Positions 2,184 to 3,790 of a stretch of 4,208 nucleotides of DNA are shown piece by piece (position 1 is the stretch's first letter; every line of letters begins with the position of its first letter). Source of the DNA: a virus. Taxonomy: Duplodnaviria; Heunggongvirae; Uroviricota; Caudoviricetes. The notes below the pieces were generated by a model. It did not search any database. It was given only the letters and a program-made list of their open reading frames with translations, and was not told the DNA's origin. A program made the translations under genes and the position numbers. Location: the IMG/VR virus record IMGVR_UViG_2690316348_000006. The stretch is one strand, 5' to 3'.

Positions 2184-2870
2184 ATGACCCCAATAAACAT
2201 ATTTATGACAGTTGCTGATTTCAAACGGCCCAAATTGGAGCTCCCAAACGGGGCAAACAAACTACTACTGCACTCTTGCTGTGCTCCATGTTCCGGTGAG
2301 GTGATGGAGGCGCTTCAGGCCTCGGGAATCGACTACACCATCTTTTTCTACAACCCGAACATTCATCCTCAGAAAGAGTATTTAATTCGTAAGGATGAGA
2401 ATATTCGCTTTGCTGAACAACACGGCGTGCCGTTTATTGATGCTGATTACGACACAGACAACTGGTTTGAACGAGCCAAAGGAATGGAATGGGAGCCCGA
2501 ACGAGGGATCCGTTGCACCATGTGTTTTGACATGCGTTTTGAGCGGACAGCGCTGTACGCCGCTGAAAATGGTTTCAGTGTGATCAGCAGTTCACTGGGC
2601 ATTTCACGCTGGAAAAATATGCAGCAGGTTAACGACTGTGGGCGGCGAGCCGTCGCGCATTATCCGGGCATGGTGTACTGGGATTATAACTGGCGCAAGC
2701 AGGGCGGCTCGTCCCGTATGATTGAAATCAGCAAGCGCGAAAAATTCTATCAGCAGGAATATTGTGGCTGTGTGTATTCTCTGCGCGATACCAATCTACA
2801 CCGCAAATCTCAGGGACGCCCTCTTATCAAAATTGGTCAACTCCACTACGGTAAAGAAGAGAAGGAGTGA
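2184..2870 (+). CDS. queH: QueH-like epoxyqueuosine reductase homolog (DUF208 family); alternative start ATG 2205
   Basis: 228-aa ORF with the N-terminal [11 protein letters not shown] motif (C32, C33, C36; nt 2277-2291) characteristic of QueH/DUF208 as recalled from memory, plus a later CxxC (C111, C114) and a CGC motif near the C-terminus. No obvious SD before either ATG. Preceded by a 147-nt intergenic gap after the replication-module operon. Confidence 0.8.
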
Positions 2871-2891
2871 TTTTATGGGGCACCTTTCTGA

Positions 2892-2921
2892 TTGATTTCA
2901 TATTGGCGAGGTAAGTAGAAT
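2892..2921 (+). promoter_or_regulatory. Putative sigma70 promoter of the hok/mok mRNA (-35 TTGATT 2892-2897, 18-nt spacer, -10 TAGAAT 2916-2921)
   Basis: Hexamers read directly from the sequence. The predicted start site (about 2927-2929) coincides with the 5' edge of the fold-back element at 2926-2939. Confidence 0.4.
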
Positions 2922-2925
2922 GACT

Positions 2926-2939
2926 GCGGGTGCTTGAGG
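2926..2939 (+). promoter_or_regulatory. hok mRNA 5' element (tac/fbi-like) complementary to the 3' end of the transcript
   Basis: GCGGGTGCTTGAGG (2926-2939) is complementary to CCTCAACGCACCCGC (3310-3324) with one bulged nucleotide, giving 14 bp. Next to it is a hairpin CTATCTGC(2940-2947)/GCAGATAG(2969-2976), analogous to the 5' hairpin of plasmid R1 hok mRNA as I recall it. Confidence 0.5.
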
Positions 2940-2976
2940 CTATCTGCTTCAGGCATGAACACCAAAAGGCAGATAG

Positions 2977-3047
2977 AGAAAAGCCCCAGTTAACATTACG
3001 CGTCCGGCAAGACGCTTAACATTAATCTGAGGCCAATTTCATGCTTT
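2977..3047 (-). ncRNA. sok: Sok-like antisense RNA (approximate boundaries)
   Basis: Minus-strand promoter candidate: -35 TTGCCT (complement of + 3079-3084), 17-bp spacer, -10 TAACCT (complement of + 3056-3061), start about 3047. The transcript would cover the mok SD (GAGG 3029-3032) and mok ATG (3041), contain a GCGTC/GACGC hairpin (3000-3015) and end in a U-rich tail (complement of AGAGAAAAG 2974-2982). Position matches the hok/sok paradigm; boundaries are inferred, not measured. Confidence 0.35.
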
Positions 3048-3253
3048 GCACATGTAGGTTAGCCTCTTACATGCCGAAAGGCAAGGAGAAGCAGGCTATG
3101 AAGCAGCAAAAGGCGATGTTAATCGCCCTGATCGTCATCTGTTTAACCGTCATAGTGACGGCACTGGTAACGAGGAAAGACCTCTGTGAGGTACGAATCC
3201 GAACCGGCCAGACGGAGGTCGCTGTCTTCGTAGACTACGAATCCAGGAAGTAA
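3041..3253 (+). CDS. mok: mok-like upstream reading frame, in frame with hok and starting 57 nt upstream (modulation of killing)
   Basis: ATG 3041 is preceded by GAGG (3029-3032) and shares the hok stop. The 57-nt in-frame extension mirrors how chromosomal mok/hok pairs are annotated in E. coli K-12, as I recall. Whether it is translated cannot be told from sequence. Confidence 0.4.
   Translation: MLCTCRLASYMPKGKEKQAMKQQKAMLIALIVICLTVIVTALVTRKDLCEVRIRTGQTEVAVFVDYESRK
3098..3253 (+). CDS. hok: Hok/Gef-family membrane toxin (type I toxin), 51 aa, closest to HokD/RelF-type
   Basis: Translation MKQQKAMLIALIVICLTVIVTALVTRKDLCEVRIRTGQTEVAVFVDYESRK matches, from memory, E. coli HokD almost exactly except for the last ~7 residues. 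SD AAGGAGAAG (3082-3090) sits 7 nt before the ATG. Has the single transmembrane helix and conserved Cys typical of Hok. Confidence 0.9.
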   Translation: MKQQKAMLIALIVICLTVIVTALVTRKDLCEVRIRTGQTEVAVFVDYESRK

Positions 3254-3309
3254 GAGTGACCGGGCGGGGAGCTGATCCCATCCCCGCCCACCTCTGATGT
3301 GTCAGGCAT

Positions 3310-3324
3310 CCTCAACGCACCCGC
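3310..3324 (+). promoter_or_regulatory. hok mRNA 3' fold-back-inhibition (fbi-like) element pairing with 2926-2939
   Basis: CCTCAACGCACCCGC is the reverse complement of the 5' element apart from one bulge. It lies between the hok stop and the terminator. CCCGC-type motifs recur at 3283-3290 and 3331-3338. Confidence 0.5.
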
Positions 3325-3330
3325 ACTTAA

Positions 3331-3376
3331 CCCGCCCATCGCTGTGATCTCTCAGCGTTTCGGCGGGTTTTTTGTT
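3331..3376 (+). terminator. Rho-independent terminator of the hok transcript
   Basis: Two-tier stem: CCCGCC (3331-3336) pairs with GGCGGG (3362-3367), and an inner CGCTG (3340-3344) pairs with CAGCG (3353-3357). Followed by TTTTTTGTTGTTT (3368-3380). Confidence 0.6.
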
Positions 3377-3393
3377 GTTTATTTCCGGTGAAT

Positions 3394-3421
3394 TTGATTC
3401 GCGCACCTTCGCAGATAGAAT
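3394..3421 (+). promoter_or_regulatory. Putative sigma70 promoter for the downstream ORFs (-35 TTGATT 3394-3399, 16-nt spacer, -10 TAGAAT 3416-3421)
   Basis: Hexamers read directly from the sequence. Lies just after the hok terminator and about 80 nt upstream of ATG 3503. The hexamers and the following GACT resemble the hok promoter at 2892-2925. Confidence 0.3.
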
Positions 3422-3502
3422 CGACTCACTTAAGTAGCGCGCAGGGAGAAGAGGGATGGACCCCGAACAGGGGAGAGCTATTTATCTGGAAGGATTCTGA
3501 AG

Positions 3503-3790
3503 ATGAAAATCGAAGAATTGCGTGAAATTTTTAGTGAAAATGGCCTCTATGCTGTGCGCGTTGAGAATGGAGCGATTGTCAGCCATTGCCGCATTAGATG
3601 TTTGCAATCTCAACAAAGGAAGAGCGGTGCTGTGTTATTTTATTTTTGTAATGGACTTCTGACGGACGGTTTTATTTTGCGTGAGGACGAATTTGTCACA
3701 TCATTACGGGTTTTGAAAGAGATTGGTTTTAAGGCTGGTTTTCTGCTTTTGCTGAAGAATAAACTCATCTACAATCTTGAGCAGGATTGA
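3503..3790 (+). CDS. Hypothetical protein, 95 aa, AT-rich orphan ORF
   Basis: ATG 3503 is preceded by GGAAGGA (3488-3494). Base composition is visibly more AT-rich than neighbouring genes. The C-terminal half is hydrophobic (GFKAGFLLLLKNKLIY). No family recognised. Confidence 0.5.
   Translation: MKIEELREIFSENGLYAVRVENGAIVSHCRIRCLQSQQRKSGAVLFYFCNGLLTDGFILREDEFVTSLRVLKEIGFKAGFLLLLKNKLIYNLEQD

What the first reader, a model, noticed from the sequence alone, without database searches (positions are those of the whole stretch)
2892..3380. Complete hok/mok/sok type I toxin-antitoxin locus with intact regulatory RNA architecture
Seen directly: a Hok toxin ORF with an in-frame mok-like extension; a promoter-like TTGATT-18-TAGAAT upstream; 14-bp complementarity between the 5' end (2926-2939) and 3' end (3310-3324) of the predicted transcript; a 5' hairpin (2940-2976); an antisense promoter and hairpin consistent with Sok; and a terminator. 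By established knowledge, this matches the fold-back-inhibition mechanism of plasmid R1 hok/sok. Many chromosomal hok loci are decayed, so an apparently complete set of elements suggests this copy is functional. Its C-terminus (VFVDYESRK) differs from the K-12 HokD sequence as I recall it. In a prophage such loci can stabilise the element or act in abortive infection.
Basis: partly seen in the sequence, partly recalled or inferred. Interest (0 to 1): 0.45.

Follow-up and report, generated by a model that had tools for sequence, protein, structure and literature searches.

The report
Intact prophage hok/mok/sok toxin-antitoxin locus
This is an ordinary, apparently intact copy of the well-known hok/sok "host-killing" toxin-antitoxin module, a near-twin of the characterised hokW-sokW of Shiga-toxin phages, sitting in a lambda-like E. 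coli prophage.

Summary
Window 2892-3380 holds a complete hok/mok/sok type I toxin-antitoxin locus.

- **Toxin:** the 51-aa Hok matches Pfam HOK_GEF (E 9.8e-23). It differs from the tested toxin HokW of phage 933W/Sp5 by one residue, E50R.
- **Leader:** it matches Rfam RF01794 at 117 bits (threshold 59).
- **5'/3' pairing:** 2928-2939 pairs with 3310-3322 in the minimum-energy fold with probability about 1. Across 40 hok loci from several genera, 91% of these pairs hold, against 33-55% when the partner columns are shifted, with compensatory changes.
- **Other R1-type elements:** all are present. These are a 5' metastable hairpin, ucb pairing with the mok Shine-Dalgarno, a feasible tac/ucb switch after 3' trimming, an in-frame mok, and a hok start codon buried in a conserved helix.
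- **Sok:** the antisense Sok has the same -10 hexamer (TAACCT) that was mutated experimentally in sokW.
- **Prevalence:** the DNA is 100% identical to an E. coli chromosome where RefSeq annotates hokD. Relatives occur in 4713 of 5426 complete E. coli genomes.

Corrections are minor. The 14-bp duplex has a 1-nt bulge and only 12 bp lie within the likely transcript. The 2940-2976 hairpin forms only in the closed state. The C-terminus is the common prophage type.

Expression and toxicity were not tested. Interest is low.

The parts
2892..2921 (+). hok/mok promoter: -35 TTGATT (2892-2897), 18-nt spacer, -10 TAGAAT (2916-2921)
   Evidence: The consensus scan finds it. A TAnnnT hexamer lies 6 nt upstream of GGG(T/C)GC in every clade of alignment A1. 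The -35 lies in sequence shared with the QueH-linked lineage such as phage HannyBb, not with 933W.
2928..2939 (+). tac element (GGGUGCUUGAGG) at the predicted 5' end of hok mRNA. G2928 is the inferred transcription start.
   Evidence: The Rfam RF01794 match starts at 2928. It pairs with 3310-3322 at probability 0.97-1.0. Across 40 loci, 91% of cells are paired, against 33-55% when the partner columns are shifted; column 38/443 reads U-A 29, C-G 7, U-G 3.
2930..2956 (+). Metastable 5' hairpin: 2930-2940 pairs with 2946-2956, sequestering tac in nascent and 3'-trimmed RNA
   Evidence: It is the minimum-energy fold of the first 53 nt and of RNAs ending at 3296-3309. Across 40 loci, 97.5% of cells are paired against 30-50% when shifted, and 4 of 11 pairs show compensatory changes.
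2940..2976 (+).
   Evidence: It appears in the full-length fold. Helix 2 in A1 is 93% paired, with 3 pairs changed on both sides.
2981..2989 (+). ucb (anti-SD, AAGCCCCAG). It pairs with the mok SD in the closed form and with tac 2928-2935 in the open form.
   Evidence: The full-length fold pairs 2983-2985 and 2987-2989 with 3027-3033. In RNA trimmed to 3292-3296, enforcing tac/ucb costs only 1.6-1.9 kcal/mol, against 12.4 kcal/mol in full-length RNA. The GCCC core is invariant in A1 and the fourth C is at least 90% conserved. Element names follow PMC9841398.
2979..3049 (-). Predicted Sok antisense RNA (about 71 nt): 15-nt single-stranded 5' tail, long hairpin, U-rich 3' end. It covers the mok SD and start codon.
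   Evidence: The position is homologous to the sokW annotated in 933W. It is 64/71 identical to SokW, with all differences in the first 16 nt. Fold -28.6 kcal/mol, z -4.7. Expression was not tested.
3056..3084 (-). Sok promoter: -35 TTGCCT (3084->3079), 17-nt spacer, -10 TAACCT (3061->3056)
   Evidence: The sequence is read directly. 28 of 29 nt match 933W. The same -10 was mutated to abolish sokW in PMC8621323 (primer YO-421). It is below the threshold of the consensus scan.
3028..3031 (+). mok Shine-Dalgarno (GAGG), 9 nt upstream of the mok ATG
   Evidence: The sequence is read directly. GAGG is invariant in A1. It is paired with ucb in the full-length fold.
3041..3253 (+). mok reading frame (70 codons), in frame with hok and ending at the same stop codon
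   Evidence: ORF list. mokW and hokW have the same in-frame arrangement in 933W. The Mok peptide differs from MokW at 3 residues.
3060..3066 (+). dcb (UAGCCUC), complementary to the mok SD region GAGGC
   Evidence: The AGCCUC core is conserved in A1: the A, the first C and UC are invariant, G is invariant in every locus that has the position, and the second C is at least 90% conserved. It pairs with 3029-3033 when tac/ucb is enforced in trimmed RNA. The name follows PMC9841398.
3098..3253 (+). hok toxin gene (51 aa; SD GGAG at 3086-3089). It has Cys30, and Tyr47 is encoded by TAC within TACG (3236-3239).
   Evidence: Pfam HOK_GEF E 9.8e-23. One residue differs from HokW. RefSeq annotates it as hokD, WP_014532198.1. 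The start codon is buried in conserved helix 3096-3107 / 3221-3233, which is 93% paired in A1.
3262..3289 (+). GC-rich hairpin just after the stop codon. It is the likely 3' end-protecting stem of the processed, active mRNA.
   Evidence: The stem is 9 bp in the minimum-energy fold. Its inner part is 95.5% paired in A1 (helix 17). The role is inferred from the R1 model.
3297..3309 (+). 3' segment that pairs with the mok start region (3041-3053) in the full-length RNA, extending the closed state
   Evidence: Minimum-energy fold. Helices 6-7 in A1 are 67-68% paired, with 10 of 12 pairs changed on both sides.
3310..3322 (+). fbi element (CCUCAA-C-GCACCC), complementary to tac with one bulged C (3316)
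3329..3378 (+). Intrinsic terminator: two-tier hairpin 3329-3369 followed by a U-run
   Evidence: Fold -22.8 kcal/mol, z -4.85. It carries an insert of about 24 nt in the loop relative to the common CCCGCTTCGGCGGG form.

Best explanation
The locus is a functional-looking member of the hok/mok/sok type I toxin-antitoxin family, of the prophage hokW/hokD subtype. It most likely works as in plasmid R1.

1. **Closed full-length mRNA.** A stable transcript of about 445 nt (2928 to about 3372) is made from the TAGAAT promoter. During synthesis its 5' end is held in a metastable hairpin. Once the 3' end is made, tac (2928-2939) pairs with fbi (3310-3322) and ucb masks the mok ribosome-binding site. 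This RNA is neither translated nor bound by Sok.
2. **Activation by 3' trimming.** Slow 3' exonucleolytic trimming back to the GC-rich hairpin at 3262-3289 removes fbi. tac can then pair with ucb, which exposes the mok start region.
3. **Repression by Sok.** While the short-lived antisense Sok RNA (3049->2979) is being made, it pairs with that region and the duplex is destroyed.
4. **Killing.** When Sok disappears, ribosomes translate mok. This opens the helix that buries the hok start codon, so Hok is made and damages the inner membrane.
5. **Likely role.** By analogy with hokW-sokW, the payoff in a prophage is probably earlier lysis and more phage release after induction. Stabilisation of the prophage or abortive infection remain possible.

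What is shown here: homology, the sequence elements, the predicted alternative folds and their covariation. What is inferred: transcription starts, 3' processing, Sok expression, toxicity and biological role.
For: **Homology**
- Pfam HOK_GEF matches at 79.9 bits, E 9.8e-23.
- Rfam RF01794 matches at 117 bits against a gathering score of 59, E 3.6e-27, over the full model.
- The DNA is 100% identical to an annotated hokD locus in E. coli FDAARGOS_943.
- It is 92% identical to the annotated hokW/mokW/sokW of 933W and VT2-Sakai.
- Hok differs from HokW by one residue.

**RNA design**
- tac/fbi is in the minimum-energy fold at probability about 1; transcript z-score -8.3.
- The whole fold mapped on 40 loci is 83.4% paired against about 41% when partner columns are shifted. 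51 pairs carry compensatory changes against 28-34.
- The tac/fbi helix is 91% paired; the metastable hairpin is 97.5% paired. The same tac position (U/C) covaries with both partners.
- Removing fbi switches the 5' end to the alternative hairpin.
- tac/ucb is within 1.6-1.9 kcal/mol of the optimum in trimmed RNA, but 12.4 kcal/mol worse in full-length RNA.
- The hok AUG has unpaired probability 0.0 in all states, as expected for translational coupling to mok.

**Sok**
- The promoter -10 is identical to the one whose mutation released HokW toxicity.

**Published function of the closest relative (PMC8621323)**
- HokW is toxic and sokW neutralises it.
- Sok is lost after mitomycin C in a RecA-dependent way.
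- Deleting hokW-sokW halves phage release.

The R1 element scheme is taken from PMC9841398.
Against: - There are no expression, processing or toxicity data for this allele.
- The Sok -10 (TAACCT) matches the consensus at only 3 of 6 positions and fails the generic scan.
- The hok promoter match alone is no better than chance.
- In trimmed RNA the computed optimum is the metastable hairpin, not the tac/ucb form. The open state is therefore plausible but not predicted outright.
- Chromosomal hokA, hokB and hokC loci were reported not to mediate post-segregational killing (cited in bioRxiv 10.1101/2025.08.07.668861). An intact sequence does not guarantee activity.
- The effects of E50R and of the enlarged terminator loop are unknown.
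- The prophage carries an IS1 insertion downstream and may be defective. That would make a lysis-helper role moot.
Confidence: 0.9

Rival explanations
1. The sequence is intact but the copy is silent or neutral. All elements are present, yet the locus is not activated under any natural condition, as was reported for chromosomal hokA, hokB and hokC. It persists only because it rides in a mobile prophage module.
For: - Chromosomal hok loci failed to mediate post-segregational killing or to respond to rifampicin (cited).
- Relatives are present in 4713 of 5426 genomes, often in several copies, so many copies may be passengers.
- The prophage shows an IS1 insertion.
Against: - The near-identical hokW-sokW is active and has a phenotype.
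- RNA pairings are kept through compensatory changes across genera. This indicates selection on the regulatory RNA design, not drift.
- The hok ORF and both promoters are intact.
Confidence: 0.12
2. The mechanism is the same but the role differs. The locus mainly stabilises the prophage or genomic region by killing cells that lose it, or it acts as an abortive-infection defence against other phages, rather than helping the prophage's own lysis.
For: - R1 hok/sok mediates post-segregational killing and reduces T4 plating (summarised).
- hok genes are about four-fold enriched in prophages.
Against: - The only direct test in a prophage found no growth effect without induction and a positive effect on phage release.
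- hok is not enriched near defence systems (section heading; discussion text).
Confidence: 0.3
3. The toxin gene is transcribed mainly as part of the prophage early-right operon rather than from its own promoter. On induction, read-through from the upstream genes on the same strand both supplies hok RNA and blocks the convergent Sok promoter. This would explain why Sok is lost on induction.
For: - All flanking genes lie on the + strand with hok: a DnaC-like gene, DUF977, QueH, hok and DUF1367.
- QueH ends 21 nt before the hok -35.
- sokW disappears after induction in a RecA-dependent manner by an unknown route.
Against: - This is pure inference with no transcript data.
- In 933W the locus lies in a different genomic position.
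- hokW mRNA levels did not rise after mitomycin C.
- The conserved -10 hexamer and the conserved 5' end argue that the locus has its own promoter.
Confidence: 0.15

Closest known systems
hokW/mokW/sokW of Stx2 phages 933W and Sakai Sp5 (VT2-Sakai)
   Same: - DNA is 92% identical over window 2908-3332.
- Hok differs by one residue (E50R) and Mok by three.
- Shared features: in-frame mok, the same tac and fbi, an identical Sok body, identical Sok promoter hexamers, and the same -10 for hok.
   Different: - 7 of the first 16 nt of Sok, the single-stranded recognition tail, differ.
- The sequence upstream of 2908 (including the -35) and downstream of fbi (the terminator) is unrelated.
- The genomic position differs: here the locus lies between QueH and DUF1367 in the early-right region of a Rac-like prophage. 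In 933W it lies in a different gene neighbourhood, flanked by unrelated hypothetical genes.
hokD (relF) of the E. coli K-12 Qin prophage
   Same: The Hok core is the same (residues 1-44 identical) and the fbi region is shared. RefSeq names this gene hokD.
   Different: - K-12-type copies match only window 3084-3335. They lack the promoter, tac, ucb, mok start and Sok region (hits H22-H24).
- The K-12 C-terminus is VFTAYEPEE, against VFVDYESRK here.
hok/mok/sok of plasmid R1 (parB)
   Same: The regulatory logic is the same: tac/fbi closure, a metastable 5' hairpin, ucb/dcb switching around the mok SD, mok-hok coupling, Sok antisense to the mok start, and a processed form ending at a protective hairpin (scheme in PMC9841398).
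   Different: - HokW is only 44% identical to R1 Hok (PMC8621323).
- From my own recollection of the R1 sequence, which was not checked here: R1 mok is out of frame with hok, whereas here it is in frame, and the R1 full-length RNA is about 398 nt against about 445 nt predicted here.
- R1 is a plasmid, where the role is post-segregational killing.
hokC (gef)/mokC/sokC of the E. coli chromosome
   Same: It shares the in-frame mok arrangement, tac and fbi with the same bulged C, and the TACG Tyr codon near the C-terminus (rows L016-L023).
   Different: The protein is about 80% identical. The target hairpin is shorter, with about 23 nt missing, and the Sok -10 region differs.

Membership tests
Hok/Gef type I toxins (Pfam PF01848) | A peptide of about 50 aa with an N-terminal hydrophobic helix and the conserved TRKDLCEV...EVA.F core | tested here: met
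   HOK_GEF scores 79.9 bits against a cut-off of 22 and covers the full profile, positions 1-42. One residue differs from HokW.
Hok/Gef type I toxins (Pfam PF01848) | Two cysteine positions: one hard-coded, the other Cys or an editable Tyr (TAC within TACG) | tested here: met
   Cys30 is present. Tyr47 is encoded by TAC at 3236-3238, followed by G. This matches the pattern reported for hokC, hokD and hokE (PMC5630033). Editing itself was not tested.
hok/mok/sok locus (R1 type) | hok mRNA leader homologous to the family leader | tested here: met
   Rfam RF01794 matches at 117 bits against a gathering score of 59, model positions 1-157 of 157, on the + strand at 2928-3103.
hok/mok/sok locus (R1 type) | An overlapping mok frame with its own SD, starting upstream of hok | tested here: met
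   ATG at 3041, with GAGG 9 nt upstream, 70 codons, in frame with hok. mokW has the same arrangement.
hok/mok/sok locus (R1 type) | Long-range tac/fbi pairing between the 5' end and the 3' UTR | tested here: met
   12 bp plus one bulge, probability 0.97-1.0. 91% paired in 40 loci, with compensatory U-A to C-G changes.
hok/mok/sok locus (R1 type) | A metastable 5' hairpin that sequesters tac in the nascent RNA | tested here: met
   It is the minimum-energy fold of the first 53 nt and of trimmed RNAs. 97.5% paired, with 4 compensatory pairs.
hok/mok/sok locus (R1 type) | ucb masks the mok SD in the closed form; tac/ucb and SD/dcb form in the processed form | tested here: inconclusive
   The closed form is predicted. 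The open form lies 1.6-1.9 kcal/mol above the computed optimum in trimmed RNA, against 12.4 kcal/mol in full-length RNA. The elements are too conserved to show covariation.
hok/mok/sok locus (R1 type) | A cis-antisense Sok RNA with its own promoter and terminator, overlapping the mok start | tested here: met
   This holds at the sequence level only. The promoter hexamers are identical to sokW, and Sok is 71 nt with a tail, a hairpin and a U-rich end. Transcription was not tested.
hok/mok/sok locus (R1 type) | 3' exonucleolytic processing to a translatable mRNA; unstable Sok and stable hok mRNA | not testable with these tools
   This needs Northern blots or a rifampicin chase. A candidate protective hairpin lies at 3262-3289.
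hok/mok/sok locus (R1 type) | Hok is toxic and Sok neutralises it | not testable with these tools
   This was shown for HokW/sokW, which differs by one residue (PMC8621323).

The most novel reading that the evidence does not exclude
The allele-specific features may have a function.

- **Sok tail.** The 5' recognition tail of Sok and its target at the mok start form a small hypervariable cassette: 7 of 16 nt differ from SokW, while the rest of Sok is identical. This could make co-resident hok/sok copies blind to each other's antitoxins.
- **Terminator.** The enlarged two-tier terminator could retune how fast the mRNA is trimmed into its active form.

Together these would give each prophage its own private kill timer.
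Probability: 0.25. Interest if true: 0.3.

Novelty: already known. Interest (0 to 1): 0.1.

Why it matters
It matters little beyond annotation.

- **Annotation gap.** The locus is a textbook regulatory RNA design, and the result confirms that sequence reading alone can recognise it. RefSeq annotates only the toxin here, as hokD. The mok frame, the Sok RNA and the regulatory RNA elements are unannotated in this record.
- **Naming.** hokW-type is a more accurate label than hokD.
- **If active.** By analogy with hokW-sokW, the module would contribute to lysis timing and phage release of a Rac-like prophage.
- **Side observations.** The divergent Sok tail and the conserved TadA-editable Tyr codon are small leads for work on cross-talk between multiple hok copies and on RNA editing of toxins.

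Tried and rejected
1. **Generic terminator scan.** It found nothing in 2700-3600. I rejected this as evidence of absence, because direct folding shows a strong two-tier hairpin followed by a U-run.
2. **Generic promoter scan on the minus strand.** It found no Sok promoter. I kept the promoter on grounds of homology to the experimentally mutated sokW -10.
3. **Unrestricted duplex search between 5' and 3' segments of all loci.** It over-extended the duplexes, and its shuffled controls were barely separated from the real sequences. I replaced it with alignment-based pair counting.
4. **My first guess about the open form.** I thought tac GAGGCU pairs with AGCCUC at 3061-3066. I dropped this after reading the R1 scheme: AGCCUC is dcb, the partner of the mok SD, and ucb is the GCCCC box at 2983-2987.
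5. **Reading the Rfam 'sok' hit as evidence for the antisense RNA.** I rejected this. The model matches the sense strand from the transcription start to the hok AUG, so it supports leader homology only.
6. **The idea that the C-terminus marks a new variant.** I rejected this. VFVDYES[E/R][K/E] is the most frequent form among the fetched loci.
7. **One script timed out** and was rerun in lighter form.
8. **Not used.** Large protein searches, structure prediction and fold searches would add nothing to a 51-aa peptide with a clear family match.
Full report
**What the window is**

The 4208-bp window is part of the early-right region of a lambda-like prophage of the Rac type. All genes lie on the + strand. 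In order they are:

- a DnaC/IstB-like ATPase (439-1185);
- DUF977 (1200-1622);
- a small zinc-ribbon ORF;
- the epoxyqueuosine reductase QueH (2184-2870);
- the hok locus;
- an orphan 95-aa ORF (3503-3790);
- DUF1367.

Region 2871-3400 is 100% identical to the chromosome of E. coli FDAARGOS_943. There RefSeq annotates window 3098-3253 as 'type I toxin-antitoxin system toxin HokD'. The surrounding annotation (Rha, Cro/CI, YdaT, ydaV, holin, RrrD) confirms a prophage.

**Checking the observation**

- **ORFs.** The 51-aa Hok ORF (3098-3253) has an in-frame ATG at 3041, giving a 70-codon mok-type frame.
- **Promoter.** TTGATT-18-TAGAAT lies at 2892-2921. The scan result alone is no better than chance. 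However, a TAnnnT hexamer sits exactly 6 nt upstream of GGG(T/C)GC in E. coli, Photorhabdus, Pantoea and Erwinia loci whose hexamers differ. This supports both the promoter and a start at G2928, which is also where the Rfam model begins.
- **5'/3' complementarity.** It is 14 bp with one bulged C (3316). Twelve of these pairs lie in the predicted RNA.
- **Full-length fold.** In the minimum-energy fold of 2928-3372 these pairs have probability 0.97-1.0. The transcript folds far better than shuffles (z -8.3).
- **Terminator.** It is a two-tier hairpin (3329-3369, -22.8 kcal/mol, z -4.85) followed by a U-run. The simple scan missed it because of its internal loop.
- **Antisense promoter.** TTGCCT-17-TAACCT (3084->3056, minus strand) is weak against consensus. 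It is homologous to the sokW promoter. The published promoter-less sokW construct changes exactly this -10 (primer YO-421 in PMC8621323).
- **Sok.** The predicted Sok (3049->2979) has a 15-nt free 5' tail, a long hairpin and a U-rich end.

**Is it more than chance?**

Three lines of evidence say it is.

- **Family models.** Pfam HOK_GEF matches at E 9.8e-23. Rfam RF01794 matches at 117 bits against a threshold of 59. The Rfam 'sok' model matches the sense strand from the transcription start to the hok AUG. It therefore supports homology of the hok leader, not the antisense RNA as such.
- **Covariation.** I fetched 129 related loci and aligned 40 distinct ones from Escherichia, Shigella, Kluyvera, Citrobacter, Photorhabdus, Pantoea, Erwinia and Kalamiella.
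  - The window's full-length fold mapped on this alignment is 83.4% paired, against about 41% when the 3' partners are shifted. It has 51 pairs with changes on both sides, against 28-34.
  - The tac/fbi helix is 91% paired, against 33-55%.
  - Part of the shortfall in the tac/fbi helix comes from Photorhabdus loci. They lack the bulge and so pair one column off.
- **Coupled covariation.** The variable tac position (U in E. coli, C in Photorhabdus and Pantoea) changes together with its fbi partner (A to G). It also changes together with its partner in a second, mutually exclusive hairpin.

**The switch**

- **Metastable hairpin.** This alternative is 97.5% paired across the 40 loci, with four compensatory pairs. 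It corresponds to the metastable structure described for R1 hok mRNA (PMC9841398).
- **Closed form.** In the full-length fold the mok ribosome-binding site (GAGG, 3028-3031) is paired with the near-invariant GCCCC box (ucb, 2983-2989). The mok start region (3041-3053) is paired with 3297-3309.
- **Open form.** Forcing tac to pair with ucb costs 12.4 kcal/mol in the full-length RNA. It costs only 1.6-1.9 kcal/mol in RNA trimmed to the GC-rich hairpin at 3262-3289. The mok SD then pairs with AGCCUC (dcb, 3061-3066). The R1-type closed-to-open switch is thus thermodynamically plausible, though the open state is not the computed optimum.
- **Coupling to mok.** The hok start codon is fully paired in every state, in a conserved long-range helix (3096-3107 with 3221-3233, 93% paired). 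This fits translation coupled to mok.

**Comparison with known systems**

- **hokW/mokW/sokW.** The closest described relative is hokW/mokW/sokW of Stx2 phages 933W and Sakai Sp5. DNA is 92% identical over 2908-3332. Hok differs by E50R only. Mok is in frame in both. The tac and fbi elements, the Sok body and the Sok promoter hexamers are the same.
- **Published function of hokW-sokW (PMC8621323).**
  - HokW is toxic.
  - sokW, from its own promoter, neutralises it.
  - sokW disappears after mitomycin C in a RecA-dependent way.
  - HokW reaches the inner membrane.
  - Deleting the locus delays growth arrest and halves phage release.
- **K-12 hokD.** It matches only 3084-3335, so it lacks the whole 5' regulatory half.
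- **C-terminus.** VFVDYESRK is simply the HokW type. VFVDYES[E/R][K/E] is the commonest form among the fetched loci, and the exact protein occurs in other E. coli, in Shigella flexneri and in viral contigs.

**How unusual is completeness?**

It is not unusual.

- Relatives occur in 4713 of 5426 complete E. coli genomes, and 3737 have a copy covering at least 80% of this region.
- 78 of 115 assessable fetched loci pass all five crude element tests.
- A recent survey reports 44,248 Hok homologues and a four-fold enrichment in prophages (bioRxiv 10.1101/2025.08.07.668861).

**What is specific to this allele**

- **Upstream flank.** The sequence upstream of 2908, including the -35, belongs to a QueH-linked lineage also seen in the isolated phage HannyBb.
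- **Sok tail.** Seven of the first 16 nt of Sok differ from SokW, while the remaining 55 nt are identical.
- **Terminator.** The terminator loop carries an insert of about 24 nt relative to the common form. This explains why most database matches stop at 3335 and why only two E. coli records reach 99% identity or more.

**Verdict**

The locus is an already known kind of element, annotated in public records and a near-twin of a characterised system. Function of this particular copy is inferred, not shown. Interest is low.

Noticed in passing
window 2184-2870: An epoxyqueuosine reductase QueH gene (Pfam PF02677, E 1.9e-65) lies directly upstream of hok inside the prophage. The same QueH-hok adjacency occurs in the isolated phage HannyBb (96.5% aa identity). 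Only 25 of 50,697 phage records have any QueH homologue. Why a lambdoid phage carries the last enzyme of queuosine-tRNA synthesis is unexplained.
   Followed up: partly
window 3236-3239: The Tyr47 codon TAC is followed by G, giving TACG. This is the TadA A-to-I editing motif reported to recode the equivalent Tyr to Cys in hokC, hokD and hokE (PMC5630033). TACGA is invariant in all 40 aligned loci. Editing could add a second cysteine and raise toxicity.
   Followed up: partly
window 3034-3055 (Sok 5' tail / mok start): This is the most variable patch of an otherwise highly conserved leader, and it occurs as discrete alleles. Sok here differs from SokW at 7 of its first 16 nt and at none of the other 55. 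It may set antitoxin specificity between co-resident copies.
   Followed up: partly
window 3394-3421: A second promoter-like site, TTGATT-16-TAGAAT, has the same two hexamers as the hok promoter. It lies just after the hok terminator and upstream of an orphan 95-aa ORF (3503-3790) with no Pfam match.
   Followed up: no
window 3336-3361: The terminator loop holds an insert of about 24 nt, itself a small hairpin (CGCUG/CAGCG), relative to the common CCCGCTTCGGCGGG terminator of related loci. Among the 40 aligned loci only L004 (S. flexneri) and L050 share the insert. A 14-nt direct repeat links 3283-3296 and 3331-3344.
   Followed up: partly
window 2928-3103, + strand: The Rfam family named 'sok' (RF01794) matches the sense hok-leader strand from the transcription start to the hok AUG, not the antisense strand. 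Hits to it should not be read as locating Sok itself.
   Followed up: yes
L001 8507-9204 (E. coli FDAARGOS_943 prophage): An IS1 element sits between the DUF1133 gene and a tRNA cluster in the host prophage, downstream of the window. The prophage may therefore be partly defective.
   Followed up: no
L015, L020, L049 (genome-contig hits): Short contigs of 275-2995 bp labelled Acinetobacter idrijaensis, Xanthomonas pisi and a 'Candidatus Scatousia' MAG carry near-identical E. coli-type hok sequences. These are most likely assembly contaminants rather than true hosts.
   Followed up: no
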